IMG/VR virus record: IMGVR_UViG_3300008262_000238
Coordinates: 1-56,728 of that record
Direction: 5' to 3' (one strand)
Length of the DNA: 56,728 bases
Origin: a virus
Taxonomy: Duplodnaviria > Caudoviricetes
In this document: in pieces, positions 1,510-12,739 of the stretch
Numbering within the stretch: the stretch's first letter is position 1
How the letters are laid out: the number at the start of each line of letters is the position of its first letter
Program-made: the position numbers and the translations under genes
The notes under the pieces: generated by a model
Seen by the model: only the letters and a program-made list of their open reading frames with translations
What the model was told of the DNA's origin: nothing
The model's database searches: none

Positions 1510-1633
1510 AGGATCTTTGTTTTATGATTACATTACAAAGATATACACTCTCAGGCATTCTGGGTCTCGCACCTGACAATCCATCTTATTTAACCCTTTG
1601 GGGCGATACGGGAACCTAAGTTTATGTGTTTTG

Positions 1634-1707
1634 TGGATCTTGTTGGAATCGAACCAACCACCTACTGATTATGAGTCAGTTGCTCTAACCGAATGAGCTA
1701 AAGGACC
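1634..1707 (-). tRNA. tRNA-Ile2/Met (CAT)
   Basis: Cloverleaf; ACTGA-CTCATAA-TCAGT; TTCGATT T-loop; two acceptor-stem mismatches. Confidence 0.8.
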
Positions 1708-1712
1708 TTATG

Positions 1713-1798
1713 TAGTCAGGACAGGATTCGAACCTGTACTAATCCTGGCATTCACCATATTAAATTAGGAACGTGTTACCAATTACACCACCTGACTA
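1713..1798 (-). ncRNA. tRNA-like element 1 (TAGTCAGG family)
   Basis: AGTCAGG/CCTGACT acceptor, D-arm, ACAGG-TTCGAAT-CCTGT T-arm; oversized loop in place of an anticodon loop. Confidence 0.8.
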
Positions 1799-1800
1799 AT

Positions 1801-1974
1801 TTATTTTACTTGGACATCAACAAGTCCATCTTCAATATCATTTAATAGTTTTCCAATTATGTTAGAAGTAACTATTTTCTTATCACTCTTTGTTGCTTTG
1901 AAATCGGTTATGATTTCCATTCCAACCTCAATCAATCTTACAAGTTGTTCTTCGGTAAGTTCAAATTTCTTCAT
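1801..1974 (-). CDS. Small hypothetical protein (57 aa, MKKFELTEEQL...)
   Basis: ORF fills the gap between tRNA-like elements 2 and 1; A-rich start context. Confidence 0.65.
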   Translation of the reverse strand: MKKFELTEEQLVRLIEVGMEIITDFKATKSDKKIVTSNIIGKLLNDIEDGLVDVQVK

Positions 1975-1990
1975 ATTATTTTCTTTTTAG

Positions 1991-2114
1991 TAGTCAGGAC
2001 AGGACTCGAACCTGTACCAGTTTTACATTATTAAGCGAACCTAATAAATACCATACCCACTTATGACGTGAATCAGTGATGGGGATATGCGTTTACCATT
2101 CTGCCACCTGACTA
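1991..2114 (-). ncRNA. tRNA-like element 2
   Basis: Same acceptor/D/T arms with a ~70-nt unique core. Confidence 0.8.
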
Positions 2115-2372
2115 AATTAACACCCTTATTTATCCAACTCACAGGTGTCTTGGTTGTCCCCACCATAAAAGTAGGTTAGGAATAGTCAGTTCGTCCTCAC
2201 GAGGTCGGGTTGACTTTCAATCTATCTCTGTTGAGATATGTGTTACCACTGTATCAAATACAACTTACTTACCCAGTCGTTCTCCCTATACGACAAAGTA
2301 CGTTCCCCTACGGACATCAATCCGTTTCTCGTCGTGTGGGGCACACTATGGGGTGATGAACCCGCAACGTGA

Positions 2373-2487
2373 TGTCAGGGAGGGATTCGAACCCACAATG
2401 AGCAACCTTACGACTCCATAGAACCCACAAGTTTCTGGGACTATTGGTCTTGGGGACTCGGCACCATGCCTCATTACACTCCTGACA
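2373..2487 (-). ncRNA. tRNA-like element 3 (divergent)
   Basis: TGTCAGG...GGGTTCGAATCCCTCCCTGACA with a long structured core. Confidence 0.6.
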
Positions 2488-2591
2488 AACCCGACTCTTC
2501 AGCATTCTACTCCCCGCACATACATAAATGTAACACGAAATTGTATCTAATTTAACCCTACGTTGGCGGTACGGGTACTGAAGTTTATCGT

Positions 2592-2678
2592 TGGTACTCG
2601 AAGAGGGACTCGAACCCTCACAACCCAATGGTCAACAGAGCTTAAACCTGTCGTGTCTACCAATTCCACCATCCGAGC
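2592..2678 (-). tRNA. tRNA-Leu (TAA)
   Basis: Class II cloverleaf, ACAGG-TTTAAGC-TCTGT, encoded CCA. Confidence 0.9.
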
Positions 2679-2689
2679 ATTTTAAAGAG

Positions 2690-2752
2690 TTATTTTCTCT
2701 TTCTTACCATAAAGATAAATAATATAAACAATACAAACAATATTGGTGTCAT
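2690..2752 (-). CDS. Micro-ORF, 20-aa membrane peptide MTPILFVLFILFIFMVRKRK
   Basis: AAATTAAAATT-ATG start context; hydrophobic helix with basic tail; fills the spacer. Confidence 0.5.
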   Translation of the reverse strand: MTPILFVLFILFIFMVRKRK

Positions 2753-2767
2753 AATTTTAATTTTTAG

Positions 2768-2874
2768 TAGTCAGGACAGGATTCGAACCTGTACGTAGTC
2801 CATCGAGGTTGTATTTATAATCCAAACTACTTAATTATCACCCTGAGCGTCTAACCAATTCCGCCACCTGACTA
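2768..2874 (-). ncRNA. tRNA-like element 4
   Basis: Conserved ends TAGTCAGGTGGCGGAATTGG / TACAGGTTCGAATCCTGTCCTGACTA, unique core. Confidence 0.8.
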
Positions 2875-2876
2875 TA

Positions 2877-2942
2877 TTAATGATTTATCTCACTTAACAT
2901 AAATCCTACAAATATTACAAATATTACTATAATCCACCCCAT
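2877..2942 (-). CDS. Micro-ORF, 21-aa membrane peptide MGWIIVIFVIFVGFMLSEINH
   Basis: AAAAAACA-ATG start context; fills the spacer between elements 5 and 4. Confidence 0.5.
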   Translation of the reverse strand: MGWIIVIFVIFVGFMLSEINH

Positions 2943-2958
2943 TGTTTTTTAATTTTAG

Positions 2959-3051
2959 TAGTCAGGAGAGGAATCGAACCTCTCTACAGGGAGCTACCCA
3001 ACATCCATGATCTTCCATCGGACTCGAACCGACCTTGTACCAACCTGACTA
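2959..3051 (-). ncRNA. tRNA-like element 5 (two T-loop hairpins)
   Basis: TAGTCAGG/CCTGACTA ends; internal TCGG-TTCGAGT-CCGA plus terminal GAGG-TTCGATT-CCTC. Confidence 0.75.
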
Positions 3052-3059
3052 TAAAAAAA

Positions 3060-3576
3060 GATCCTGAATTGTCCCTGCACTAATCAGGAGGATCTTTTAG
3101 TTTTCTTATATTTAGTGTCTCTATATCCCTCACCGTTATAACTAGAATTCGCTAGTCCATAGTAACCATCCCCGGTGGGTTTCTACTTTCACACTCCGTC
3201 TTTATTCTATCTCACCATCAATACGAGTGGAATCAAACTCAGCGTTCAGTGCTGCCCTCAGGACATCTTCACCCTACCCCCAAAGTTACGTGGCGAGTCT
3301 CACTCGGAAGCTGAGTGTATATTGTAGGATTGTCCAGTATTCCTACAACTTGTGGATTGTATTACGATCACTTAAGACCCCTCACCCCCTTAATCCATAA
3401 TGGGGAATCCTTACCTAACCCGTGTAGCCTCCCCCATAGCCTTGAAGCCTTCAAGTCAGGATCACACACCATAACGATCGGATATTTTCGTTAATCGTGG
3501 GGTCTTAAAAGTAGAGTATGACGTATGCTCGTTTTATAGTTGTTTCCATCCGCAAACTCACGGTTCTCTCTACTTT
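3060..3576 (-). ncRNA. Structured non-coding RNA region (several stem-closed modules)
   Basis: GC-enriched, no long ORF; closing stems TTAAGACCCC/GGGGTCTTAA (3372-3508), AAAGTAGAG/CTCTACTTT (3508-3576), GATCCT/AGGATC (3060-3094). Confidence 0.55.
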
Positions 3577-3577
3577 G

Positions 3578-3677
3578 TAGTCAGGACAGGATTCGAACCT
3601 GTGTTGCCCTTAGTTGCTCTTACTTCTCAGTAAAGTGTGGGATCGAACCACACCTGGACCAAAGTTCCACCTGACTA
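3578..3677 (-). ncRNA. tRNA-like element 6 (two T-loop hairpins)
   Basis: Conserved ends; internal GTGTGG-TTCGATC-CCACAC hairpin. Confidence 0.75.
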
Positions 3678-3684
3678 AATATTG

Positions 3685-3824
3685 TTGATAGTGATGGAGT
3701 ACCCGTCTCGCTCCAATCTTAACTGCTTCTTCTGACTTTTATCAGGGCCCCGGCAGAAAGGGTGCTGAATTCCTGATCCACTCTGGATTGTCGACATCCG
3801 TTGAGTGGGGAAAACCACTATCAA
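3685..3824 (-). ncRNA. Candidate structured RNA
   Basis: Closed by TTGATAGTG/CACTATCAA; GC-rich, no ORF. Confidence 0.5.
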
Positions 3825-3835
3825 TATTTTAAAAA

Positions 3836-4062
3836 TGGTAAGACCTTAAGATTTACTTATTCGTGGGTCACCCCATCTTTACTACCTATACCTCGCCTTC
3901 AACATCCGTTCTACCCAAACCATCGTTTATATACCTGTTAACCTCTCGGTTATCTCTGAGTACCTCCTCAACGTTTTTAATCTGATAGGGGCTCCATTTT
4001 GCTCGTTATTTCTAACTCCTCTGTGGGATTCTGCTGATATAGGTCTATCTGCTATCTTACCA
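3836..4062 (-). ncRNA. Candidate structured RNA
   Basis: Closed by TGGTAAGA/TCTTACCA; no long ORF. Confidence 0.45.
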
Positions 4063-4067
4063 ATCTA

Positions 4068-4220
4068 TTATTTCAAAATCATATATTTAACTCCGTTAAC
4101 AATCTTAACTTCGTAATTCCCCTTATTTTGGGATCTCTTTGTTGATTTGGCGGTTTTTGTATTTTTCTCCGCTTCACCAAATTTGGTCTTAATCACCTGA
4201 TTCATTGAAAATCTTTCCAT
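4068..4220 (-). CDS. Small basic protein (50 aa, MERFSMNQ...)
   Basis: Start moved to 4220 because the promoter TTTG(4265-4268)...TAACTTTG(4238-4245) lies in the upstream part of the track ORF. Confidence 0.6.
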   Translation of the reverse strand: MERFSMNQVIKTKFGEAEKNTKTAKSTKRSQNKGNYEVKIVNGVKYMILK

Positions 4221-4237
4221 ATCTCTTATTGTTTCTA

Positions 4238-4268
4238 CAAAGTTATAAAAAATTTTTGATCTGCCAAA
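4238..4268 (-). promoter_or_regulatory. Bacteroidota-type sigmaA promoter
   Basis: -33 TTTG and -7 TAACTTTG; same -7 motif at 1536, 5478, 7330, 7721, 9947, 19249(+), 27456(+), 29266, 29952(+), 36941, 44877(+), 47833, 55372, 56675. Confidence 0.75.
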
Positions 4269-4285
4269 CATTTTTTAACTTTTTG

Positions 4286-4359
4286 TAATCAGGACAGGAT
4301 TTGAACCTGCAATCTCACCCACATACTGTAAGCGCGCGTTACCAATTAGCCACCTGACC
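4286..4359 (-). ncRNA. tRNA-like element 7 (tRNA-sized, non-canonical anticodon arm)
   Basis: GGTCAGG/CCTGATT acceptor; CGCTTAC-AGTAT-GTGGGTG arm lacks U33. Confidence 0.7.
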
Positions 4360-4440
4360 ATGTAGTGGAGCGTCACTTATTTCTAAGTTATCCACTTCGG
4401 TTACGTTATCTTTCGATAAGAGGCTTTACCGAGCCCAAGG

Positions 4441-4539
4441 TAGTCAGGACAGGATTCGAACCTGTATTTAGGGTTATTTAATCGGGTTTCATACCGTACC
4501 TACATCGCGAGTGCGTCTACCAATTCCGCCACCTGACTA
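4441..4539 (-). ncRNA. tRNA-like element 8
   Basis: Conserved ends TAGTCAGGTGGCGGAATTGGTAGACGC / TACAGGTTCGAATCCTGTCCTGACTA. Confidence 0.8.
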
Positions 4540-4668
4540 TTTTTTACTGCTCACGTAGAACACACAATCTTTTTTTCGTTTGCTCTTAAAGACTATCTCT
4601 TTATCTTGCTTAACTTGCCACCATATTCCTATCCATGCATGACATTTCTTTTCTATTGTGTAATTCAT
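4537..4668 (-). CDS. Micro-ORF, 43 aa (MNYTIEKKCHAWIGIWWQVK...)
   Basis: Fills the spacer between elements 9 and 8; its TAG stop is the first three bases of element 8. Confidence 0.55.
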   Translation of the reverse strand: MNYTIEKKCHAWIGIWWQVKQDKEIVFKSKRKKDCVFYVSSKK

Positions 4669-4683
4669 AACTTTAATTTTTTG

Positions 4684-4779
4684 CAGTCAGGACAGGATTC
4701 GAACCTGTATTAACCTATATCCGCTTCCTTATCAGATTATCTACGATTCCTTAATCCTACCAATTCCACCACCTGACTA
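4684..4779 (-). ncRNA. tRNA-like element 9
   Basis: Conserved acceptor/D/T arms, unique core. Confidence 0.8.
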
Positions 4780-4993
4780 TTTCGGGAAGGGAGCGAGCAA
4801 CTCCCTTTTATTCCCTACTAATTTTATTAGTTTGTTTCTAAGATCAAAAACTCTTTTATGTAAAAATGACCTCCTTTTTCTATTCCCGAAACTATTAAAC
4901 GGAGTTGTTATGTTATATAAACTACTTAAAGTCATCGGCTTTATTTAACGTCTAAAACCTGCGTCTAACAACAGACCACAAAAAGACGACTCG

Positions 4994-5068
4994 TATTCCG
5001 TACGGGATTCGAACCCGTGATCTCTTCCGTGAAAGGGAAGTGTCCTAAACCAGCTAGACGAACGGAAC
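4994..5068 (-). tRNA. tRNA-Glu (TTC)
   Basis: CTTCC-CTTTCAC-GGAAG; canonical cloverleaf. Confidence 0.92.
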
Positions 5069-5080
5069 AAAATAATGTTG

Positions 5081-5154
5081 TGGATACATACGGGATTTGA
5101 ACCCGTGACTCCTGATTGCAAGTCAGGTGTGATCGCCAGCTTCACCAATGACCC
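5081..5154 (-). tRNA. tRNA-Ala (TGC)
   Basis: CCTGA-CTTGCAA-TCAGG; G3:U70 present; 1-nt acceptor bulge. Confidence 0.85.
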
Positions 5155-5496
5155 AAAATTACCCCCTCTTGAGATTACAGAGGAGTAGTCGTATCGGTTT
5201 TTCCTATTTCAAAAACCTGATGGGCATCCCCGATAAAAACGTCAATCCTTACTTGGGGGAGAGGAGGATTTTCCAAACCGATTCCCAATGAGTACCACAT
5301 ACACGCGATAGTACCAGCTTCGTTAAGTTTTTATGAAGAAAACTTAAAAACTTCGGGTATCTCTTTCCCATTTTTAAAAAGACACAAAAAATAAGTGTAG
5401 TATTGTCCTCAAAAACCGGAGAAGATGAGGGTTCTTATTTATGTGTCTTATTTAGTATTTATCTTTCATTTAGAATACAAAGATATACTATTTTTT

Positions 5497-6321
5497 TTAA
5501 TTTTCAAAATTTTTCACATCATTAATAATATTCAAAATATCATTTTCATACTCTTTTTTTAATAATGTTTTAACTTTGTATCTTTTTAGTTTATAATTTT
5601 CTATTATTTTTGTCTCCCTTGTTATTTCTTTTAAACTATTTTCATCGTGAAATCTTTCACCATCAATTTCAACACACAAATTCAGTTTTGGGAAAAAGAA
5701 ATCAACATAATAAATATCAAACTTGAATTGTTGTATAAAATCTAAACCTTTGGTAAGTCCGTTTTTTTCTATAAATTCTCTAAAGAATTTTTCGGGATAT
5801 GATTCTTTAATTCCGGCACATAATCTATTAGGATGTAACTCAGGATTTTTTTTAAATCTATCCTTCATATTTTTACTAAGTTTTTCTTTATACAATAAAC
5901 AACTTTTTTGACATTCACTAGAACAATATATGTTGTGATTTTTTTTAACTTTTTTACCACAAACTAAACAATTTGGTCTGACCCTCTTAACATTATTTTC
6001 TTTGTTATAGTTTTTTACACCAATAGTAATTTTATTTTTAATTTCTTCAGATAAAATCCTACCGGTATTATTAAACTTAGCACTACAACTGTTATTACAA
6101 AATCTTCTTTTATCACTTTTATATGATTTAAATGACTTACCACAATTGTAACAACTAACAATTTCTTTAGACTCTTTTTTAAGGTATTTAACACCAAGTC
6201 TAATACATTTATTAGTTATGGATCTAAATGTCATACCCATTAACTCACTTATTTCTTTATAGGTTTTACCTTGTGAAATTAATTTTTTTAATTCGTTTTC
6301 TTTGTTTTCATCCCATTTCAT
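5497..6321 (-). CDS. Putative homing endonuclease (HTH + Zn fingers + DUF559/Vsr-like domain)
   Basis: C-terminal YYVDFFFPKLNLCVEIDGERFH; CxxC...FCxxxC modules; inserted among tRNAs. Confidence 0.75.
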   Translation of the reverse strand: MKWDENKENELKKLISQGKTYKEISELMGMTFRSITNKCIRLGVKYLKKESKEIVSCYNCGKSFKSYKSDKRRFCNNSCSAKFNNTGRILSEEIKNKITIGVKNYNKENNVKRVRPNCLVCGKKVKKNHNIYCSSECQKSCLLYKEKLSKNMKDRFKKNPELHPNRLCAGIKESYPEKFFREFIEKNGLTKGLDFIQQFKFDIYYVDFFFPKLNLCVEIDGERFHDENSLKEITRETKIIENYKLKRYKVKTLLKKEYENDILNIINDVKNFEN

Positions 6322-6386
6322 ATATATATAAATATCTTGAAATGAGTTAAAATTCAGATTTGAACCTAATTTTTAGTAAATTTTTG

Positions 6387-6457
6387 AGCGGATAGATGGT
6401 ACCTCCCCATCTTCCTCAGTTTGGAAGACTGACGCATTAATTTTATGCTATACCCGC
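6387..6457 (-). tRNA. tRNA-Gly (TCC), atypical D/T loops
   Basis: GCGGGTA/TATCCGC-U73; TCAGT-CTTCCAA-ACTGA; T-loop GGAGGTA; D-loop lacks GG. Confidence 0.8.
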
Positions 6458-6676
6458 AAAATTGTGACAACCTTTGGGGTCAGTTGTCACGTTTACGTGA
6501 ATGAGGTGATCAAACCTTCTTATATCACGGGTGTAGATTCGTCTCGTCAATCATCTCTCCCAATACGTTAGTTATTTCTCGTAAAACTAAAAAAGCCGAC
6601 TTGACACCTTGTAACCCCAATTTTAAGTGTGTGTTACCATCCTCTCTCAAGTTGAGCTCTACTGCATGCACTCCCG

Positions 6677-6750
6677 TACCGAAGAAGGGACTTGAACCCA
6701 TAACCTTGACGATATAAGCGTCCTGCTCTCACCTGTTGAGCTACCTCGGC
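6677..6750 (-). tRNA. tRNA-Ile (TAT)
   Basis: GACG-CTTATAT-CGTC anticodon arm; A73; TTCAAGT T-loop. Confidence 0.8.
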
Positions 6751-6833
6751 AAAAATTGTCAGTCTTTCCTGACCGTCACCCCTAACCCACAGGTATTACC
6801 CGTATCGTAGTAAAGCTTGGTTGGCTGTGTTAG

Positions 6834-6906
6834 TAGCAACGCCTTGGAATCGCACCAAGTTAAACCGGCTTATGAGACCGGTGAGATCCTCTACCTCCCG
6901 CCTGCT
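6834..6906 (-). tRNA. tRNA-Met (CAT), atypical
   Basis: CCGGT-CTCATAA-GCCGG; T-loop TGCGATT; acceptor bulge. Confidence 0.7.
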
Positions 6907-6913
6907 ATGTTTG

Positions 6914-7006
6914 TAGATAAGAAAGGATTCGAACCCATAACGCCGTTTTTAACTCGGCATCTCCCCCAAATTGAGGATAGCGTCTACCAATTCCGCCACT
7001 CACCTA
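6914..7006 (-). ncRNA. tRNA-like element 10 (Leu-like D arm, no canonical anticodon arm)
   Basis: AGGTGAG/CTTATCT acceptor, TGGCGGAATTGGTAGACGC, long variable hairpin, GGTTCGAATCC. Confidence 0.65.
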
Positions 7007-7114
7007 TTTTTGTGATTTAGTAGTTAACACACACTCTCGTTTCACTATCTTATGTTAACAGGTTGATACACTTTACGAGTTTCCCGTTTCTTACAACCAC
7101 AATATTTTAAAAAT

Positions 7115-7251
7115 TTGAGATTTATATGTATCAGCATCATTACTCCATCGTTAAATGCTTTATGGCGGATTAGACCATACTAGTCGGAGCAAGCTAGTTC
7201 AATACATACTACCTAAAGTTTTCCCCCTCGTTTTAGTGTAATAAATCTCAA
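7115..7251 (-). ncRNA. Candidate structured RNA
   Basis: Closed by a 10-bp TTGAGATTTA/TAAATCTCAA stem, immediately after a boxA-like element. Confidence 0.45.
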
Positions 7252-7254
7252 CAA

Positions 7255-7360
7255 TTTCAAAGAACTTTCCCTTTTGACACGGGAGTAGGATCACCATCTC
7301 TAATCTTCCTACCCCCGTTGTTTGTCTTACAAAGATATGTAATGTTTTTTAATCTGCCAA
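7255..7360 (-). promoter_or_regulatory. Promoter + hairpin + boxA-like element
   Basis: TTGG...TATCTTTG, then hairpin ACGGGGGTAGGA/TCCTACTCCCGT, then GTTCTTTGAAA. Confidence 0.6.
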
Positions 7361-7361
7361 A

Positions 7362-7571
7362 TTAATTGTGGATCATTTCTAAAATTTCTTCAACAGTTTC
7401 TGTTACTGAAAATCCCCCGTTGTTGTGAGTTGTAACACCAACACGAGTATGTTCTTTTTCAGTAACTCTTCCGTATTCCACTTTTTCATCAACAGGGTAA
7501 AAGTGTCCGATATGTTCAACATTCAAAACAATGATGTTCCCGTTTTTTGCTGTTAATTTGATAAATTTCAT
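7362..7571 (-). CDS. Small FlbD-like protein
   Basis: MKFIKLT..NG..IVLN..HI ... V.ETVEEI pattern resembles the FlbD family. Confidence 0.55.
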   Translation of the reverse strand: MKFIKLTAKNGNIIVLNVEHIGHFYPVDEKVEYGRVTEKEHTRVGVTTHNNGGFSVTETVEEILEMIHN

Positions 7572-7594
7572 ATAATTTTATTTTTAATCGTTTG

Positions 7595-7678
7595 TACTCG
7601 GAGAGGGACTCGAACCCTCACTCCCGTCTGGGAACGGCAGCTTAAATGCAGCGTGTCTACCAATTCCACCATCCGAGC
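7595..7678 (-). tRNA. tRNA-Leu (TAA), second copy
   Basis: Class II cloverleaf, loop TTTAAGC; one anticodon-stem mismatch. Confidence 0.85.
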
Positions 7679-7684
7679 ATTTCA

Positions 7685-7701
7685 CCAATATGTCAAAGAA
7701 C
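7685..7701 (-). promoter_or_regulatory. boxA-like antitermination element
   Basis: GTTCTTTGACATATTGG, identical 17-mer at 12180-12196. Confidence 0.65.
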
Positions 7702-7756
7702 CTTTATCGTTTCTGCCTTACAAATGTAAGTAATCTTTTTTAATTGCACAAGTCCT

Positions 7757-7793
7757 GAAAACAAAAAACCCACCTCTTTTTGGAGATGGGTTT
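7757..7793 (-). terminator. Attenuator terminator of leader 2
   Basis: AAACCCATCTC-CAAAAA-GAGGTGGGTTT + TTTGTTTT. Confidence 0.85.
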
Positions 7794-7815
7794 AAAATTT
7801 TTTATGTATATAATA

Positions 7816-7884
7816 TTACACCCTCTCCTTGAAAGTTGTCTCAGCTAAATCGCCCCCTATCAATGATATGTGTAAATTTTTCAT
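7816..7884 (-). CDS. Leader peptide 2 MKNLHISLIGGDLAETTFKERV (attenuator)
   Basis: 22-aa ORF after ATATTTATA motif; 3' codons GGAGA-GGGT complementary to the terminator 5' arm ACCC-A-TCTCC. Confidence 0.8.
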   Translation of the reverse strand: MKNLHISLIGGDLAETTFKERV

Positions 7885-7943
7885 TTGCGTTTTTATTATT
7901 TTGTTATAAATATATAATACTTTTCAAAAGTGTCAAGTTTTTT

Positions 7944-8264
7944 TTAAAAATCTTCATCATAATCACCAAGAACCTCATAAAGGTAATCCTCATAATTCAA
8001 TGAAATATAGTCCGCTAATAACGTGAACAAGTCATCTTGAAAGTCACCCATAATATCTTTAGCCAAAGCCATGGCCTTTTTTCCCATAGTTGCATCATCA
8101 TAATCACCAAGATCGTAAAGAGATTCCCTAACCTCCTTAAACACATCATCCAATGTAATGGATATTCTCATACCTTCCATTTTATCTTCTTCGTTATCTT
8201 CTTTAATAACTCGTTTAACAATCCTTGTTAAATCCGATTCTGTTAATTTAGTTACTCTTTTCAT
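7944..8264 (-). CDS. Acidic protein with LTESDL leader
   Basis: MKRVTKLTESDLTRIVKRVIKE N-terminus. Confidence 0.8.
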   Translation of the reverse strand: MKRVTKLTESDLTRIVKRVIKEDNEEDKMEGMRISITLDDVFKEVRESLYDLGDYDDATMGKKAMALAKDIMGDFQDDLFTLLADYISLNYEDYLYEVLGDYDEDF

Positions 8265-8318
8265 AATTTATATTTATTTTATAAATATTTTATGTTTTTT
8301 AAATGTGTCAAGTTTTTT

Positions 8319-8699
8319 TTAAAATTCTCCTTCACCCTCAATTTTACCCCAAACGTTTTTATATTCCGGGTTTTGTAAGAATAAATCGGCTTCAGTTGAT
8401 TCATTCTCCAAATCACTGATATAATCTTTTAACAAATCAATTACTTGTCTGATTCTTTCCTGTCTTTGTCTTGGACTAACTTTTCTTGATAGTTGGTGTT
8501 CTCTTGATAAATACCCGTATTCACCAGGATCACTAAAAACATTACCTTCATCTTTTCTAAAGAAGATGTCATTTAGTTTATCCCTTAAATTTAGATCTTT
8601 AGACTCTTTTTTATTGGATCTAAATCCCTCACCTTCTCTAATCACTTTTTTAACAATCCTTGTTAAATCCGATTCGGTTAATTTTATGACTTTTTTCAT
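8319..8699 (-). CDS. Protein with LTESDL leader
   Basis: True start MKKVIKLTESDL at 8699; the track extension overlaps tRNA-Leu. Confidence 0.8.
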   Translation of the reverse strand: MKKVIKLTESDLTRIVKKVIREGEGFRSNKKESKDLNLRDKLNDIFFRKDEGNVFSDPGEYGYLSREHQLSRKVSPRQRQERIRQVIDLLKDYISDLENESTEADLFLQNPEYKNVWGKIEGEGEF

Positions 8700-8732
8700 A
8701 ATAATAAATATATCATTATTTGAAAATGTTTG

Positions 8733-8813
8733 TACCCCCGGAGAGATTCGAACTCTCACACCTCTCGGCATCAGATCCTAAATCTGACGTGTCTACCATT
8801 CCACCACGAGGGT
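8733..8813 (-). tRNA. tRNA-Leu (TAG)
   Basis: TCAGA-TTTAGGA-TCTGA; class II. Confidence 0.92.
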
Positions 8814-8822
8814 ATTTTGTTG

Positions 8823-8894
8823 AGCTCAGGGTGGGATTTGAACCCACATACCAAGGTTTTGCAGACCTGGACTTTACCCATCAGACACCTGAGC
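8823..8894 (-). tRNA. tRNA-Cys (GCA)
   Basis: AGGT-CTGCAAA-ACCT; U73. Confidence 0.85.
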
Positions 8895-8896
8895 AA

Positions 8897-9352
8897 TTAG
8901 CGGCAGTGGTGATCTGCCTCCCTTGTTGCGATTTGGTTGTTGGGCTTAATATTTGTTTTAAAACCTAACGAGTTTGCCCATCCGACCGTAGGTGAAACCA
9001 GTCGTGAACTGAAGTGTTTTTCTTCAGCATTGTAATCCAAATCAATCTCCACCTTTACATTAACTTTTTTTGTTAACCATTCCGCAACTTGTATTGAATA
9101 ATCAGCCTCATTCCATAATCTTGTCCATTTATCTTTGATCTTTTTTATCTTTTCCTTATGGTAGATGTAATGAACACCACGATTACCATATCTATAAGCA
9201 ATTGCCGTTACATATACGGTACTTCTTCTATGATTTTGAGAGTCAGTACCAATATGGATCTCAACGTATGGACATTCCCTTAATATTTCAAGCGTGTGAG
9301 ATACAACATCGGTAACCACCTCACCAGAAACCTTTCTAAATATTTTTTTCAT
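8897..9352 (-). CDS. RNase H-like YkuK (DUF458) family protein
   Basis: IHIGTDSQ, VEIDLDYN and ADH motifs. Confidence 0.75.
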   Translation of the reverse strand: MKKIFRKVSGEVVTDVVSHTLEILRECPYVEIHIGTDSQNHRRSTVYVTAIAYRYGNRGVHYIYHKEKIKKIKDKWTRLWNEADYSIQVAEWLTKKVNVKVEIDLDYNAEEKHFSSRLVSPTVGWANSLGFKTNIKPNNQIATREADHHCR

Positions 9353-9366
9353 CTCACTACTTTTTG

Positions 9367-9442
9367 CGGAACCATAGGGAGTCGAACCCTAACTTTTGGA
9401 TTTTCAGTCCAACGTGACACACCATACTTACACCATAGTTCC
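9367..9442 (-). tRNA. tRNA-Phe (GAA)
   Basis: TTGGA-CTGAAAA-TCCAA. Confidence 0.85.
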
Positions 9443-9444
9443 TT

Positions 9445-9942
9445 TTATTTAATTTCAAATGCACAACGCATTGGCCTTTTCAATTTTTGGGAATCCTCAA
9501 AGTTCCCAATAACAACACCGTCTTTGATCGTAAAGGCATGACATTTAACCAACACAATGAAAGTCCCCTTTGGATATTTCTTTACAAATGTACCAACGGT
9601 CATTTTTCTATTAACTATTTCATTTTTAACTTTAACAGGATAATCCAAAGAATTAATCATATAGTCATTTTTTCTTTCACCAACAGGATGAACTTTTTTA
9701 CCATTTACCCTAATTCCATTATCCGACATTTTAACAAGTTTCATTGGAGTACCAAATGTTCCCCTTCTTGGTTTTCTCCCAAATTCTTCGGCAACATACT
9801 TATGAGCATAATCATATGAAATTTCAAATGAAGATGCAAATGCTCTTACAACACAATCACTTGTTTCCCATTTAGCAATCTCAGAGTCATTATAACCTTT
9901 GATTGCAGTTCCTGTTGATTCGTACGGTAGTTTGTTTTTCAT
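9445..9942 (-). CDS. Phage protein with DCVVRA...H motif (possible papain-like Cys-His fold)
   Basis: SDCVVRAFA and KCHAFTIKDG; promoter at 9947-9954 supports start at 9942. Confidence 0.6.
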   Translation of the reverse strand: MKNKLPYESTGTAIKGYNDSEIAKWETSDCVVRAFASSFEISYDYAHKYVAEEFGRKPRRGTFGTPMKLVKMSDNGIRVNGKKVHPVGERKNDYMINSLDYPVKVKNEIVNRKMTVGTFVKKYPKGTFIVLVKCHAFTIKDGVVIGNFEDSQKLKRPMRCAFEIK

Positions 9943-9989
9943 ATCACAAAGATACAAAAACTTTTTTGATCGGCAAAATTAATTTTTAG

Positions 9990-10060
9990 CACGCGCCGTT
10001 AGAATCGAACTAACCCACCGAGGTTTTGGAGACCTGGCCGACACCTTGTCTGTGACGCGC
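9990..10060 (-). tRNA. tRNA-Trp (CCA)
   Basis: AGGT-CTCCAAA-ACCT; G73. Confidence 0.85.
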
Positions 10061-10071
10061 TTATATTATTG

Positions 10072-10144
10072 TACCCCCACAGAGATTCAAACTCCGATCC
10101 CACCCTTAGAAGGGGTGTGTCCTATTCAGTTGGACGATGGGGGC
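10072..10144 (-). tRNA. tRNA-Arg (TCT)
   Basis: CACCC-CTTCTAA-GGGTG. Confidence 0.88.
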
Positions 10145-10149
10145 AATTG

Positions 10150-10222
10150 TACCCTCAAAGAGATTCAAACTCCTATCTCTGGATCCGTAGTCCAGGGTTT
10201 TATTCAGTTAAACTATGTGGGC
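10150..10222 (-). tRNA. tRNA-Arg (ACG)
   Basis: CTGGA-CTACGGA-TCCAG. Confidence 0.88.
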
Positions 10223-10413
10223 AATTAAAGAATTTTGGTCAACCACTCGCATCCCACCAATCTCTTGTATCAAACTTTTTGTAGTCCAAACGATTCCTTT
10301 ATTGAACTTAATCATTTTGGTAATATCTCCTACGACTCATTCTCAACTCACTTGCCTAAGCCTTGTAACCAGGATATGAGCCCGGCTCGGACACCTGTCC
10401 TATCGGTATGTTG

Positions 10414-10502
10414 AGGAAAGCAGTGGTAACGATCCACAATCGGTTTCTCACCGATCACATTGTTTAGCAAACAAGTCCCGTCGCCTTCAGGGATTACTTT
10501 CC
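10414..10502 (-). tRNA. tRNA-Ser (GCT)
   Basis: TTGT-TTGCTAA-ACAA; long variable arm; T-loop ATCGTTA. Confidence 0.8.
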
Positions 10503-10507
10503 ATTTG

Positions 10508-10580
10508 TGCTCATCACCGGTTACGATCCGATTCTCTCCACGATATCAGCGTGGTGCTTTCCCGATTAAGCTAGATGAGC
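10508..10580 (-). tRNA. tRNA-Ile (GAT)
   Basis: CCACG-CTGATAT-CGTGG; T-loop ATCGTAA. Confidence 0.85.
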
Positions 10581-10583
10581 CTG

Positions 10584-11117
10584 TTATAATAGTTTTTCGT
10601 GTATCTCAGCATGACAATTTGAGCACACTAATAAACATTTATCCACTTCTTCTTTTAATCTGTCAAATGACAAACTCTTTCCTGAAATTGTGAAGTCTTT
10701 TTCATTTGGATTTTTATGGTGGAATTGTAGTGCGGTCAGACATTTATTATAACCACATATTTCACACTTCCCTCCCTTGTATTCAATCAATTTCTTTTTA
10801 GTTCTCTTTCTCCATGATATAACAGATTGAGACCCACTAATCTTTTTAACCCTAACAACACTTTTAACGTGTTTTTTAACAGTTTCAAAAGACCTACCCG
10901 TAATCCTTACAACTTTTTTTAAGGAACCCACTTCATCGTATAATTTTTGAAGTTGTTCTTTTTCTTCTTCTGTTACTTTTTGATTGTTGTTGCCTAATTT
11001 ATGTATCTGACAATGATACGACACTGTTGACATTGCGCAACCTAAAATTTTTGTAATTTCTTTGTAGGTTTTTCCTTCTTTCCTCAAAGATATAATTTTT
11101 TCCGAATACCTTTCCAT
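10584..11117 (-). CDS. HNH homing endonuclease with N-terminal HTH
   Basis: CEICGY...LQFHH...CSNCHAEIH. Confidence 0.85.
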   Translation of the reverse strand: MERYSEKIISLRKEGKTYKEITKILGCAMSTVSYHCQIHKLGNNNQKVTEEEKEQLQKLYDEVGSLKKVVRITGRSFETVKKHVKSVVRVKKISGSQSVISWRKRTKKKLIEYKGGKCEICGYNKCLTALQFHHKNPNEKDFTISGKSLSFDRLKEEVDKCLLVCSNCHAEIHEKLL

Positions 11118-11167
11118 AACATTAACATTTTATATTAATAAATATCTGATAGTTCGGAAAAAATAAG

Positions 11168-11255
11168 CTGATGGGGTGGGATTCGAACCCACGGTGGAGA
11201 AAATTCTCGTCGGATTAACAGTCCGATGCGTTCGGCCAACTACGCGAACCCATCA
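11168..11255 (-). tRNA. tRNA-Asn (GTT) with long variable arm
   Basis: TCGGA-CTGTTAA-TCCGA; GAGAA-TT-TTCTC variable hairpin; G73. Confidence 0.85.
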
Positions 11256-11264
11256 ATTTTTTTG

Positions 11265-11347
11265 TGGGAGAGGAGGGACTTGAACCCCCACGTCCTCACG
11301 GAAACGGTTTTACAGACCGCCGAGCCAACCAATTGCTCAACACTCCC
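11265..11347 (-). tRNA. tRNA-Tyr (GTA)
   Basis: GCGGT-CTGTAAA-ACCGT; class II. Confidence 0.9.
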
Positions 11348-11490
11348 AAATTTAGGAAATCAGAAGATGGTTGCGTGGACATCTGATTTTACGATTGGCG
11401 TTACTTTGGTGTATATCTCCCAACTCCGATGATACTGACCGATATACACTCTCGTGTCATTAGTATCACCCTTCCCCAATCAACCTATAG

Positions 11491-11561
11491 TACCCCAAGA
11501 TGGATTTGAACCACCACCGATAGTATGTAACACTATCACGCTCCCATTACGCCATTGAGGT
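11491..11561 (-). tRNA. tRNA-Val (TAC)
   Basis: ATAGT-GTTACAT-ACTAT. Confidence 0.85.
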
Positions 11562-11630
11562 GTTTTAGTTTTTCAGAACAAAAGTAACCATTTTTTGGTA
11601 ACTATCACCCCTTTTTACTAAATTTTTTTG

Positions 11631-11705
11631 TGACCCCGGTGAGACTTGAACTCACGACCCCTCCGTTAAAAGCGGAGTGCTCTAAACCAACTGAGCTACG
11701 AGATC
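11631..11705 (-). tRNA. tRNA-Lys (TTT)
   Basis: CTCCG-CTTTTAA-CGGAG. Confidence 0.92.
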
Positions 11706-11723
11706 TTCTGTTTGTCATACTTG

Positions 11724-11912
11724 TCACTTTCCATAAGACATTAGTTTTTGATTGTTTATTTTTATTTCTGTTTCTACCCTTTTTAGTTCTTCACTTAAAT
11801 CCCCACGGTAGGATGGGTCTTTACTAATTTTGGATAAACTTAAGTAATAATTGTTTAAACCCTCAAGTCTTCCTTTAATTGCAATTTTTTCACATTCTTC
11901 GTTTGTTACCAT
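11724..11912 (-). CDS. Small coiled-coil hypothetical protein (62 aa)
   Basis: Start MVTNEE at 11912; the track extension overlaps tRNA-Pro. Confidence 0.55.
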   Translation of the reverse strand: MVTNEECEKIAIKGRLEGLNNYYLSLSKISKDPSYRGDLSEELKRVETEIKINNQKLMSYGK

Positions 11913-11927
11913 TTTTTTAAATTTTAG

Positions 11928-12000
11928 TAGGGTAGACAGGGGTCGAACCTGCATCGTCCACGTCCCAAACGTGGTGACTTACCAATTAGTCAACTACCCT
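11928..12000 (-). tRNA. tRNA-Pro (TGG)
   Basis: CCACG-TTTGGGA-CGTGG. Confidence 0.88.
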
Positions 12001-12006
12001 ATGTTG

Positions 12007-12090
12007 AGGAAGCCTGAGGTGTCGATCCCCATACCTTTCAGTACCGCCCGTTTTCAAGACGGGGTTGCAAGCCGTTGCAATTAGACTTCC
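12007..12090 (-). tRNA. tRNA-Ser (TGA)
   Basis: CCCGT-CTTGAAA-ACGGG; long variable arm; T-loop ATCGACA. Confidence 0.82.
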
Positions 12091-12099
12091 TTTTTGTTG

Positions 12100-12171
12100 A
12101 TCTCCCCCGAGGGTTCGAACCTCAATTCCATGGACCAAAACCATGTGTCCTGCCAGTTAGACGAGGGGAGA
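12100..12171 (-). tRNA. tRNA-Gln (TTG)
   Basis: CATGG-TTTTGGT-CCATG. Confidence 0.9.
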
Positions 12172-12179
12172 ATTTAAGG

Positions 12180-12196
12180 CCAATATGTCAAAGAAC
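12180..12196 (-). promoter_or_regulatory. boxA-like antitermination element
   Basis: GTTCTTTGACATATTGG between tRNA-Thr and tRNA-Gln. Confidence 0.65.
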
Positions 12197-12210
12197 ATTT
12201 TCTTTTTTTG

Positions 12211-12282
12211 AGGTCTCTGTCGGAACTGACCCGACAACTCAACTTTACAAGAGTCGTATTTTTCCTGTTAAACTAAGAGACC
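12211..12282 (-). tRNA. tRNA-Thr (TGT)
   Basis: CGACT-CTTGTAA-AGTTG; T-loop GTCAGTT. Confidence 0.82.
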
Positions 12283-12287
12283 AATGT

Positions 12288-12320
12288 AAAACAAAAAACC
12301 CGAGATTTTGTGTCTCGGGT
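12288..12320 (-). terminator. Attenuator terminator of leader 1
   Basis: ACCCGAGA-CACAAAA-TCTCGGGT + TTTTTGTTTT directly before tRNA-Thr. Confidence 0.85.
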
Positions 12321-12351
12321 CTTTCATTTTTATTTTATATTTGATGATACG

Positions 12352-12462
12352 TTATACCATACTATTAAATGAAAGACACCGAAGACGCTGAAGCGTAATA
12401 TACGACTTGACCCAATTCTGACACGGGTTACTAAAGTTCATATGTTTCATTGTTGTTTTCAT
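12352..12462 (-). CDS. Leader peptide 1 MKTTMKHMNFSNPCQNWVKSYITLQRLRCLSFNSMV (attenuator)
   Basis: 36-aa ORF after ATATTTATA; contains TCGG-T-GTCTTTCATTT, complementary to AAATGAAAGAC-CCGA overlapping the terminator 5' arm. Confidence 0.85.
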   Translation of the reverse strand: MKTTMKHMNFSNPCQNWVKSYITLQRLRCLSFNSMV

Positions 12463-12544
12463 CTTGGTTATAAATATATGTATTTTACAAAAAGTTTTAA
12501 ATTCTTTTACAAATTTAGTAATATTTTTTTATTTGACAAGCATT

Positions 12545-12658: not shown

Positions 12659-12739
12659 GTAACAAAGTTAAATATTTTTTTAATAAAAGACAACTTTTGT
12701 AGTTTAATTGGATATTTATATAATATAATCCATTAGACT

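What the first reader, a model, noticed from the sequence alone, without database searches (positions are those of the whole stretch)
1634..12480. Two tRNA operons partition the genetic code and each has its own sensor
Block A (12282-8733) and block B (7678-1634) carry almost non-overlapping specificities. Even the split amino acids are divided by codon box: Leu CUN versus UUR, Ile AUY versus AUA. The two leaders follow the same split (CTT/ATT in leader 1; TTA/TTG/ATA in leader 2) and together contain all 20 amino acids. Inference: a translation-surveillance and tRNA-rescue circuit, i.e. inducible counter-defence rather than constitutive codon supplementation. I do not know of this being described for phage tRNA clusters.
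Basis: inference. Interest (0 to 1): 0.85.

Follow-up and report, generated by a model that had tools for sequence, protein, structure and literature searches.

The report
Codon-matched leader attenuators before phage tRNA arrays
Each of the two tRNA gene arrays of this freshwater phage is preceded by a tiny reading frame and a transcription stop signal built like a classic amino-acid attenuator, and the tiny frame spells out the codons read by the tRNAs behind it, which suggests the phage makes tRNAs on demand.

Summary
Two minus-strand tRNA arrays (12282-8733 and 7678-1634) carry non-overlapping canonical specificities. Each follows a module of promoter, short ORF (36 and 22 codons) and intrinsic terminator.

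Both ORFs stay open in every full-length relative (30 and 26 distinct sequences). The last codons of each ORF can pair with the terminator's 5' arm. For leader 2 this antiterminator covaries with the terminator.

Leader 1 uses Leu CTN 50:1 and Ile ATY 51:1 across the family. Leader 2 uses Leu TTR 81:1 and Ile ATA 41:13. A relative with one merged array (L054) has one 47-codon leader containing all 20 amino acids.

In 35 leader families from Bacteroidota-phage contigs, 334 of 360 downstream tRNA specificities appear in the array's own leader. Shuffled pairings miss 74±6.5 instead of 26.

Best reading (0.8): trp-type ribosome-mediated attenuators that make tRNA-array transcription respond to slow decoding of the codons those tRNAs serve.

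The counter-defence purpose is untested and there are no expression data. In this window a second promoter lies behind sensor 2, and the His and Asp leader codons have no phage tRNA. Eight literature searches found no prior description.

The parts
12510..12540 (-). Promoter-like site upstream of leader 1 (CTTG, 19 nt, TAAATTTG). It fits the Bacteroidota -33/-7 type; that consensus is recalled, not taken from a call.
   Evidence: The pattern CTTG N18-21 TAnnTTTG occurs 5 times in the window against 0.96 expected. The segment is conserved in the L1 alignment.
12352..12462 (-). Leader ORF 1: 36 codons plus stop, MKTTMKHMNFSNPCQNWVKSYITLQRLRCLSFNSMV.
   Evidence: The frame is open in 30 of 30 distinct homologs, with 0 stops in frame against 76 and 142 in the other two frames, and all ORF gaps are 3 nt.
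12367..12388 (-). Leader 1 region 2 (antiterminator 5' strand), lying in codons 25-32 of the ORF.
   Evidence: With the terminator 3' arm removed, 12 of 12 nt of the terminator 5' arm pair here. Shuffled controls give a mean of 1.0 nt, and 0 of 100 shuffles reach the observed value.
12288..12329 (-). Leader 1 region 3, the terminator hairpin (12294-12325) and the T-run (12288-12297). It ends 5 nt before tRNA-Thr.
   Evidence: Folding energy about -16 kcal/mol. RNAalifold consensus over 30 sequences has 11 pairs, 4 with compensatory changes. Weak Rfam Thr_leader hit at 12289-12376: 27.6 bits, cut-off 55.
8733..12282 (-). tRNA block A: 14 canonical tRNAs, 2 weak candidates and interspersed ORFs (HTH/HNH-like 10584-11117, unknown 9445-9957, RNaseH-like 8897-9352).
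12180..12196 (-). boxA-like motif GTTCTTTGACATATTGG between tRNA-Thr and tRNA-Gln.
   Evidence: The same 17-mer lies between the spacer tRNA and 23S in 4 of 4 Bacteroidota rrn loci checked.
7905..7937 (-). Promoter-like site upstream of leader 2 (TTGACA, 16 nt, TATATT). The same motif precedes ORF 8264-7944.
   Evidence: (11 of 12 consensus matches), repeat family D7.
7816..7884 (-). Leader ORF 2: 22 codons plus stop, MKNLHISLIGGDLAETTFKERV.
   Evidence: The frame is open (22-24 codons) in 26 of 26 aligned sequences, with 0 stops in frame against 86 and 34 in the other frames.
7819..7828 (-). Leader 2 region 2 (GGAGAGGGTG, last sense codons): antiterminator 5' strand.
   Evidence: Helix at alignment columns 63-70 with 108-115: 93.8% of cells paired, 4 pairs with compensatory change, and 0 of 500 shuffles reach the covariation score.
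7757..7793 (-). Terminator 2: hairpin 7766-7793 plus T-run.
   Evidence: 11 pairs. 94.1% of cells paired. Column 110 covaries both with column 125 (terminator) and with column 68 (antiterminator).
7721..7752 (-). Second promoter-like site (CTTG, 20 nt, TACATTTG) between terminator 2 and block B. It could bypass sensor 2.
   Evidence: The segment is present in about a third of L2 homologs and absent in the rest, where boxA follows the terminator directly.
7685..7701 (-). boxA-like motif 6 nt upstream of tRNA-Leu taa.
1634..7678 (-). tRNA block B: Leu taa x2, Ile tat, Gly tcc, Ala tgc, Glu ttc, Met cat, about nine aberrant tRNA-like paralogs, and a DUF559/endonuclease-like ORF at 5497-6321.

Best explanation
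Both modules are ribosome-mediated (leader-peptide) transcription attenuators of the trp/his/thr type. They are placed in front of tRNA arrays instead of amino-acid biosynthesis genes.

Proposed sequence of events:
1. Transcription starts at a Bacteroidota-type promoter and a ribosome translates the short leader ORF.
2. If decoding is fast, the ribosome reaches the stop codon and covers the last codons (region 2). The terminator hairpin forms and transcription ends before the first tRNA.
3. If the ribosome is slowed at any earlier codon, region 2 stays free and pairs with the 5' arm of the terminator. RNA polymerase then reads through.
4. Polymerase passes a boxA-like element, presumably acquiring rrn-type Nus-factor antitermination, and transcribes the multi-kilobase untranslated array.

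The leader does not carry a run of one regulatory codon. It carries one to a few codons for nearly every tRNA encoded downstream, so a shortage of any of those aminoacyl-tRNAs raises synthesis of the whole array, and plentiful phage tRNA shuts it down again. This would be a supply-and-demand homeostat.

Shown here: the anatomy, its conservation, covariation of the alternative helices, and codon-tRNA matching. Inferred: translation of the ORFs, stalling-dependent read-through, NusB/boxA action, and the cause of tRNA shortage.
For: 1. Anatomy in the window. Promoter-like site, ORF, terminator, then a tRNA 5 nt (leader 1) or 88 nt (leader 2) later.

2. Conservation. Among 64 related IMG/VR loci, 39 of 43 loci with tRNA-Thr have a leader-1 ORF just upstream, and 33 of 37 with tRNA-Leu-tag have leader 2 downstream. 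The frames are stop-free in 30 of 30 and 26 of 26 distinct sequences, with pairwise nucleotide identity down to 0.49 and 0.46. The other two frames hold 76/142 and 86/34 stops. All gaps inside the ORFs are 3 nt.

3. Alternative pairing.
- Leader 2: antiterminator 93.8% paired with 4 compensatory pairs; terminator 94.1% paired. One terminator column covaries with both partners (UA14:GC9 and AU15:CG10).
- Folding with the 3' arm removed pairs the terminator 5' arm with the ORF 3' end in 25 of 26 leader-2 and 18 of 30 leader-1 sequences. Means are 7.7 and 5.4 nt against 2.1 and 0.9 nt in shuffles. The window's leader 1 pairs 12 of 12 nt.
- Across 37 modules the best duplex site for the arm ends within -30 to +12 nt of the ORF end in 33.

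4. Codon match in the family.
- Leader 1 (28 distinct sequences): Leu 50 CTN to 1 TTR and Ile 51 ATY to 1 ATA. Fifteen block-A classes are present in 28 of 28, and Glu is never present.
- Leader 2 (23 distinct sequences): Leu 81 TTR to 1 CTN and Ile 41 ATA to 13 ATY. All seven block-B classes are present in 23 of 23, and Pro, Gln, Trp and Ser-AGY never are.
- Phage background: Leu 70% TTR and Ile 39% ATA.

5. Rearranged relatives.
- L054 has one merged 27-tRNA array and one 47-codon leader with all 20 amino acids and both boxes of Leu, Ile, Arg and Ser.
- The L162 leader lacks only Pro, and its array lacks only Pro.

6. Generality.
- A fixed-rule scan found 108 modules in 35 peptide families. 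Of 360 downstream tRNA specificities, 334 are present in the array's own leader. Shuffled pairings miss 73.7 +/- 6.5 (minimum 46 in 100,000) against 26 observed.
- Excluding the window's own family (27 families): 19 of 265 missing against 52.5 +/- 5.4.
- Within-locus swaps, which control for genome composition: 15 of 15 informative pairs fit better when correctly paired, with 5 missing against 109.
- Trp is in 20 of 21 leaders whose array has tRNA-Trp (7.0 expected) and in 5 of 14 whose array lacks it.
Against: - No expression or ribosome data. No RNA run holds the locus, so translation and read-through are inferred.
- The leader-1 antiterminator is not in the minimum-energy fold of 12 of 30 homologs, and 8 of these show no pairing at all. 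It is irregular, with internal mismatches.
- The match in the window is imperfect. CAT, CAC and GAT have no phage tRNA. Leader 1 has 3 internal ATG codons but the Met tRNA sits in block B. Arg-tct in block A has no AGR codon in the window's leader 1. Nine of the 22 leader-2 codons are of block-A type.
- Leaders do not follow recent tRNA losses (L044, L046).
- L008 and L056 lost leader 2, and there the same terminator simply follows a protein gene.
- The L060-L063 clade has arrays behind plain promoters with no leader.
- A promoter-like site lies behind terminator 2 in the window.
- Codons placed inside region 2 (the Leu and Arg codons of leader 1) would, on the classical model, favour termination when they stall the ribosome. 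Not every codon can be a sensor.
- Ser codon boxes show no clear match across families.
- 26 of 360 specificities are missing from their own leader.
Confidence: 0.8

Rival explanations
1. The short ORFs are sensors of general translation status rather than of the particular tRNAs downstream. They would report ribosome availability, transcription-translation coupling or amino-acid starvation. Their high amino-acid diversity would serve only to sample translation broadly.
For: Leaders are more diverse than random peptides: mean z of the distinct-residue count is 1.0, 26 of 35 lie above expectation, and the combined P is 5.6e-7. Several leaders contain amino acids with no tRNA downstream: 85 'leader only' cells in the pooled table. 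A stalled ribosome cannot tell a missing tRNA from a missing amino acid.
Against: Composition is specific to each leader's own array. Shuffled pairings and within-locus swaps are far worse. Codon boxes of Leu and Ile are split between the two leaders of one phage. Leader diversity rises with array size (Spearman 0.51, P=0.0017). The L162 leader and its array both lack only Pro.
Confidence: 0.09
2. The ORFs encode small functional peptides, or are untranslated. The hairpins are then ordinary terminators of the upstream genes, and the arrays are transcribed from their own promoters.
For: In L008 the same terminator directly follows the homolog of ORF 8264-7944, with no leader. In the window a promoter-like site lies between terminator 2 and boxA-2. 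Several peptide positions are conserved. No expression data exist.
Against: There is no room for a promoter between terminator 1 and tRNA-Thr (5 nt). In about two thirds of leader-2 homologs boxA follows the terminator directly. The C-terminal codons covary with the terminator stem, which points to an RNA-level constraint. The codon-tRNA matching has no explanation under this reading.
Confidence: 0.07
3. It is chance: AT-rich DNA throws up short ORFs, and the match to the tRNA blocks is post hoc.
For: The distinct-residue count of the window's leader 1 is unremarkable (P=0.32).
Against: The frames are conserved over 30 and 26 diverged sequences. There is covariation. No stretch free of A/D/E/G was seen in 200,000 random windows. 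In 100,000 permutations none reached the observed match.
Confidence: 0.02

Closest known systems
Leader-peptide transcription attenuators of amino-acid biosynthesis operons (trp, his, leu, thr, pheA, ilv). General description recalled; for PMC1183508 I saw the abstract only, in the search listing.
   Same: A short ORF between promoter and intrinsic terminator. An antiterminator whose 5' strand lies at the ORF end and competes with the terminator. Regulatory codons related to the operon's product. A predicted 1:2 pairing in leader 1 (start region with UUUUCAU).
   Different: The regulated genes are tRNAs, not enzymes. There is no tandem run of one codon: one to a few codons for up to 24 decoding classes are dispersed along the leader. 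The product (tRNA) acts directly on the sensor. The host is a Bacteroidota phage. The Rfam Thr_leader hit scores 27.6 bits against a cut-off of 55, so this is not a member of that sequence family.
T-box riboswitches (recalled)
   Same: They also couple tRNA status to transcription read-through at a terminator/antiterminator switch.
   Different: T-boxes bind uncharged tRNA directly, need no translation and control aminoacyl-tRNA synthetase or amino-acid genes. No T-box match was found in window 1-14000 at E<=1.
Leader peptides that sense ribosome stalling by antibiotics or general translation stress, such as ermCL (abstracts seen in the listing: PMC5118997, PMC5499644)
   Same: A short upstream ORF converts ribosome slowing into expression of downstream genes through alternative RNA structure.
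   Different: Those respond to a drug-bound ribosome and a specific nascent peptide, and mostly act on translation initiation. Here the codon set is matched to downstream tRNA genes and the output is terminator read-through.
rrn boxA / Nus-factor antitermination (PMC13753749, passages read: E. coli UGCUCUUUAACA, B. subtilis AUGAUCUUUGAAA, located upstream of 16S and 23S)
   Same: The 17-mer GTTCTTTGACATATTGG shares the UCUUUGA core. It sits before long untranslated RNA genes. The identical 17-mer lies between the spacer tRNA and 23S in 4 of 4 Bacteroidota rrn loci checked.
   Different: Here it is carried by a phage, downstream of an attenuator, within or in front of tRNA arrays. NusB binding was not tested.
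Phage tRNA clusters read as codon supplementation or as escape from tRNA-targeting defence (T5 and others: PMC10264068; PARIS: PMC11464382). I saw only the search listings and the start of the abstracts.
   Same: Large phage-borne tRNA sets that could replace host tRNAs.
   Different: Those abstracts concern what the tRNAs are for. They describe no leader-peptide control of the arrays. Whether the full texts do was not checked.

Membership tests
Ribosome-mediated (leader-peptide) transcription attenuator | Short ORF between promoter and terminator, kept open by selection | tested here: met
   36 and 22 codons. There are 0 in-frame stops in 30 and 26 distinct homologs against 76/142 and 86/34 in the other frames. 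ORF gaps are all 3 nt.
Ribosome-mediated (leader-peptide) transcription attenuator | Intrinsic terminator between the leader ORF and the regulated genes | tested here: met
   Hairpins of about -15 to -17 kcal/mol followed by T-runs. Compensatory changes are seen. tRNA-Thr starts 5 nt after T-run 1.
Ribosome-mediated (leader-peptide) transcription attenuator | Antiterminator mutually exclusive with the terminator, with its 5' strand at the ORF end where a terminating ribosome would mask it | tested here: met
   Leader 2: covariation and 25 of 26 folds. Leader 1: 12 of 12 arm nt paired in the window, but only 18 of 30 homologs in the MFE fold. Across families: 33 of 37 modules.
Ribosome-mediated (leader-peptide) transcription attenuator | Regulatory codons cognate to the operon's product | tested here: met
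   Imperfect in the window for His, Asp, Met and Arg-AGR.
Ribosome-mediated (leader-peptide) transcription attenuator | Tandem run of the same regulatory codon | tested here: not met
   Codon classes occur 1-4 times each and are dispersed. This is the main departure from the classical family.
Ribosome-mediated (leader-peptide) transcription attenuator | Read-through rises when the cognate aminoacyl-tRNA is limiting | not testable with these tools
   No RNA run holds the locus.
Rfam RF00506 Thr_leader | Score at or above the gathering cut-off | tested here: not met
   27.6 bits against 55, E=0.11, at 12289-12376.
T-box riboswitch | Match to the T-box covariance model upstream of the terminator | tested here: not met
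   No such match at gathering score or at E<=1 in window 1-14000.
rrn-type boxA antitermination element | boxA-like sequence found in the host phylum's rrn operons upstream of 23S | tested here: met
   More than 120 genome hits, nearly all Bacteroidota. In 4 of 4 rrn loci the 17-mer lies between the spacer tRNA and 23S. It shares the UCUUUGA core with the published consensus.
rrn-type boxA antitermination element | Binds NusB/S10 and confers termination resistance | not testable with these tools
   Inference only.

The most novel reading that the evidence does not exclude
Codon-matched 'pangram' leader attenuators are a widespread, undescribed class of control element in Bacteroidota phages. 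They turn tRNA arrays into per-codon surveillance-and-rescue circuits. When host tRNAs are destroyed (anticodon nucleases, PARIS-like systems, host shut-off) or are simply ill-matched, the stalled leader ribosome switches on exactly the array that carries the replacement. On this reading it is an inducible counter-defence, and the leader gives a readable list of which decoding capacities the phage expects to lose.
Probability: 0.35. Interest if true: 0.95.

Novelty: new variant of a known kind. Interest (0 to 1): 0.88.

Why it matters
Phage tRNA genes have been debated for decades as either codon supplements or anti-defence spares. In the literature I could search, they are treated as constitutive cargo.

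A leader-peptide attenuator whose codon set mirrors the downstream tRNA set would mean three things:
- tRNA genes can be regulated by their own products, through translation speed.
- Attenuation can integrate up to 24 decoding classes in one 30-50 codon leader rather than one amino acid.
- Phages monitor decoding capacity codon by codon.

The idea is directly testable with reporters and tRNA depletion. The elements are also compact natural sensors of translation capacity that could be reused. The co-option of the host rrn boxA shows how a phage secures transcription of long untranslated arrays.

Tried and rejected
Relatives among cultured phages. INPHARED searches with 7500-13400 and with 7590-7800 matched only tRNA and HNH pieces, and 0 records covered 80% or more of the query. 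There is no isolate to point to.

Expression. No RNA holder is listed for 7500-12600, and the 20 holders are DNA metagenomes.

Sigma-70 scan. Promoter-like hits in 1-14500 are at chance level overall (48 found against 49.6 expected), so I relied on conserved motifs instead.

Motif AAAACTTGACAC. It is not enriched (12 found against 10.1 expected).

The 16-mer, later read as boxA. With 3 mismatches allowed it is not enriched in the window (2 found against 1.87 expected). Its meaning came only from the collection scans.

Distinct-residue count of the window's leader 1. Not unusual (P=0.32).

Simple duplex search for the leader-1 antiterminator in the window. It picked another site, at -56 nt. Full folding was needed.

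Column-wise pair counting for the leader-1 antiterminator. Not run, because the helix shifts register between sub-lineages.

His, Asp and Trp tRNAs of relatives. They have no counterpart in window 1-14500.

Pfam and PHROGs. They gave little for the large neighbouring ORFs.

Literature. Eight searches found no paper describing leader-peptide control of tRNA arrays. Subscription journals and supplements were not searchable, so this is not proof of absence.

Structure, complex, atlas and large protein-search tools were not needed.

Full report
WHAT IS THERE

The window is a 56.7-kb contig with no close relative among deposited phages. It recurs in lake and freshwater DNA metagenomes.

All tRNA genes lie on the minus strand.

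Block A (12282-8733) holds 14 canonical tRNAs: Thr, Gln, Pro, Lys, Val, Tyr, Asn, Ile-gat, Ser-gct, Arg-acg, Arg-tct, Phe, Cys and Leu-tag. Two weak candidates, Ser-tga and Trp, appear only at relaxed settings.

Block B (7678-1634) holds Leu-taa twice, Ile-tat, Gly-tcc, Ala, Glu and Met. It also holds about nine tRNA-like paralogs that share acceptor, D and T arms but have aberrant anticodon regions.

No canonical anticodon is shared between the blocks.

THE TWO LEADERS IN THE WINDOW

Upstream of block A the order is:
- a promoter-like site at 12510-12540;
- a 36-codon ORF at 12462-12352;
- a hairpin with T-run at 12325-12288;
- tRNA-Thr, 5 nt later.

Upstream of block B the order is:
- a promoter-like site at 7937-7905;
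- a 22-codon ORF at 7884-7816;
- a hairpin with T-run at 7793-7757;
- a second promoter-like site at 7752-7721;
- a 17-nt motif at 7701-7685;
- tRNA-Leu-taa.

Leader 1 codons:
- 28 of 36 are read by canonical block-A tRNAs.
- 3 are read by the weak block-A candidates.
- 4 are ATG.
- 1, CAT, has no phage tRNA.
- It contains no Ala, Asp, Glu or Gly. That was seen in 0 of 200,000 random 36-residue windows of the contig's own proteins.

Leader 2 codons:
- 11 are of block-B type: ATG, TTA x2, TTG, ATA x2, GGG, GGC, GCT, GAG x2.
- 9 are of block-A type.
- 2 have no phage tRNA: CAC and GAT.

ATTENUATOR GEOMETRY

Full-length folds show the terminators at about -16 kcal/mol. In leader 1 they also show a pairing of the start region AUGAAAA with UUUUCAU near the ORF end.

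When the terminator 3' arm is left out, its 5' arm pairs with the last codons of the ORF. This held in all 17 sequences first tried. It then held in 25 of 26 leader-2 and 18 of 30 leader-1 sequences, against 2.1 and 0.9 paired nt in shuffles. The window's leader 1 pairs 12 of 12 nt.

For leader 2 the antiterminator helix is 93.8% paired with four compensatory pairs, and the terminator is 94.1% paired. One column of the shared arm covaries with both partners. The C-terminal residues of the peptide therefore change together with the terminator stem.

The ORF stops 23-31 nt before the terminator arm. A terminating ribosome would mask region 2 but not the terminator. This rests on recalled ribosome footprint sizes and is an inference. 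That is trp-type logic: fast translation terminates and slow translation reads through.

CONSERVATION

The RNaseH-like ORF inside block A retrieved 64 IMG/VR loci, many from 200-300-kb contigs. Gene order is conserved:

Arg-tct, leader 1, Thr Gln (Ser) Pro Lys Val Tyr Asn Ile (Ser) His Arg Arg Trp Phe Cys Leu-tag, leader 2, Leu-taa Met Ile-tat Gly Ala Glu Asp, odd elements, Met.

Leader 1 precedes tRNA-Thr in 39 of 43 loci. Leader 2 follows Leu-tag in 33 of 37.

Both frames are stop-free in all distinct homologs despite identities down to 0.46-0.49. The other frames carry 34-142 stops, and all ORF gaps are 3 nt.

CODON MATCHING IN THE FAMILY

Leader 1, 28 distinct sequences:
- Leu is CTN 50 times and TTR once.
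- Ile is ATY 51 times and ATA once.
- Fifteen block-A classes occur in every sequence.
- Glu never occurs.

Leader 2, 23 distinct sequences:
- Leu is TTR 81 times and CTN once.
- Ile is ATA 41 times and ATY 13 times.
- All seven block-B classes occur in every sequence.
- Pro, Gln, Trp and Ser-AGY never occur.

The phage's own genes use 70% TTR and 39% ATA.

Leaders also prefer G-ending codons read by wobble by the U34 phage tRNAs: 177 of 313 against 373 of 2124 in the background, with CCG 33 of 36 and GAG 40 of 43. These counts are over related sequences, so they are not independent events. However, the Leu and Ile codons sit at different positions in different lineages.

L054 is a 66%-identity relative. 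Its tRNAs of both blocks form one 27-gene array with no second leader. The single leader is 47 codons long and contains all 20 amino acids and both boxes of Leu, Ile, Arg and Ser.

L057 has a different order. All 12 amino acids of its first array are in its 30-codon leader.

Recent losses are not followed:
- L044 and L046 lack five tRNAs with an unchanged leader.
- The window lacks His and Asp tRNAs.
- L008 and L056 lost leader 2.

GENERALITY

The 17-nt motif retrieved more than 116 further viral loci.

A fixed rule was applied: an ATG ORF of 17-60 codons ending no more than 60 nt before a perfect-stem terminator, with a tRNA less than 200 nt after it, taking the longest ORF. This gave 108 modules in 35 peptide families.

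- Of 360 downstream specificities (Met excluded), 334 are in the array's own leader. Re-pairing leaders and arrays at random misses 73.7 +/- 6.5, and never fewer than 46 in 100,000 trials.
- Without the window's own family: 19 of 265 missing against 52.5 +/- 5.4.
- Swapping the two leaders of one locus, which removes any effect of genome composition, is worse in 15 of 15 informative pairs. Missing specificities are 5 against 109. The pairs include three unrelated families.
- Trp is present in 20 of 21 leaders when the array has tRNA-Trp (7.0 expected) and in 5 of 14 when it does not.
- The L162 leader and its array both lack only Pro. L121 packs all 20 amino acids into 31 codons (random P about 7e-5).
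- The antiterminator site lies at the ORF end in 33 of 37 modules.
- Box-level matching holds for Ile (29:4), Leu-CUN (14:9 against a 30% background) and Arg-CGN (9:6 against 16%). It does not clearly hold for Ser.

THE 17-MER AND THE HOST

GTTCTTTGACATATTGG occurs at 12196-12180, between Thr and Gln, and at 7701-7685. In a scan of species-representative genomes it hit more than 120 contigs, nearly all Bacteroidota. In 4 of 4 rrn loci checked it lies between the spacer tRNA and 23S.

It shares the UCUUUGA core of published boxA elements, which sit upstream of 16S and 23S and recruit NusB/S10 (passages of PMC13753749).

I read it as a co-opted host boxA that protects the long untranslated array from termination once polymerase has passed the attenuator. 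This is an inference. It also points to a Bacteroidota host.

CAVEATS

There are no RNA data.

In the window, block B may also be transcribed from the promoter-like site behind terminator 2. In about two thirds of homologs that segment is absent and boxA abuts the terminator.

Codons lying inside region 2 cannot act as inducing sensors on the classical model.

The purpose, whether counter-defence, host shut-off or codon mismatch, is open.

NOVELTY

Eight full-text searches found no description of leader-peptide control of tRNA arrays. Supplements and subscription journals were not covered.

The mechanism class is known. The regulated target and the many-codon matched leader are new.

Noticed in passing
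window 12180-12196 and 7685-7701 (-): An identical 17-mer, GTTCTTTGACATATTGG, sits 6-8 nt upstream of a tRNA. It equals the motif found between the spacer tRNA and 23S in Bacteroidota rrn operons. It looks like a phage-borne boxA antitermination element, and it occurs in more than 116 IMG/VR contigs.
   Followed up: yes
window 1713-1797, 1991-2113, 2768-2873, 2959-3056, 3578-3680, 4286-4359, 4441-4538, 4684-4778, 6914-7005 (-): A family of about nine tRNA-like paralogs shares nearly identical acceptor (AGUCAGG), D and T arms. Their anticodon arm is replaced by 20-60-nt insertions or by a 6-nt loop. ARAGORN calls them intron-bearing, 2-base-anticodon or 'stop' tRNAs. Similar odd elements occur in relatives. 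Their function is unknown.
   Followed up: partly
window 2880-4280: About 1.4 kb has no ORF of 60 codons or more and no Rfam match other than partial tRNA hits. It is filled with the odd tRNA-like elements and spacers.
   Followed up: no
window 12352-12462 and 7816-7884 (-), and homologs: Leaders strongly prefer G-ending codons (CCG, TCG, ACG, CAG, GAG) that the phage's U34 tRNAs would read by wobble. These codons are rare in the phage's own genes. This may tune sensitivity, or it may make the leader depend on host C34 tRNAs.
   Followed up: partly
window 13262-13335 (-) and 13534-13562 (-): An extra tRNA-Arg(tct) lies upstream of, and outside, attenuator 1. This position is conserved in relatives. 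It directly follows a 61-codon ORF that is preceded by a perfect TTGACA-17-TATAAT site. AGA is the phage's main Arg codon (68%).
   Followed up: no
window 10584-11117 (-), 12740-13261 (+), 5497-6321 (-): HTH plus HNH-like and DUF559-like endonuclease ORFs are interspersed in or next to the arrays. They are probably homing endonucleases that may drive the tRNA gains and losses seen among relatives.
   Followed up: no
window 8319-8696 and 7944-8264 (-): Two paralogous small acidic proteins, both starting MK(K/R)V.KLTESDLTRIVK.VI, lie between the blocks. The second has the same promoter motif as leader 2. In L008 its homolog is followed directly by the 'leader 2' terminator.
   Followed up: partly
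L162 (minus strand of the locus; my script coordinates 998-1096) and its array: A 32-codon leader has 19 amino acids and lacks only Pro. It sits in front of a 20-tRNA array that lacks only tRNA-Pro. This is the cleanest single match outside the window's family.
   Followed up: partly
L060-L063 loci: A more distant clade (59% identity in the RNaseH-like protein) has arrays that start behind plain promoter-like sites plus a boxA-like motif, with no leader ORF. The sensor is therefore not universal, even among relatives.
   Followed up: partly
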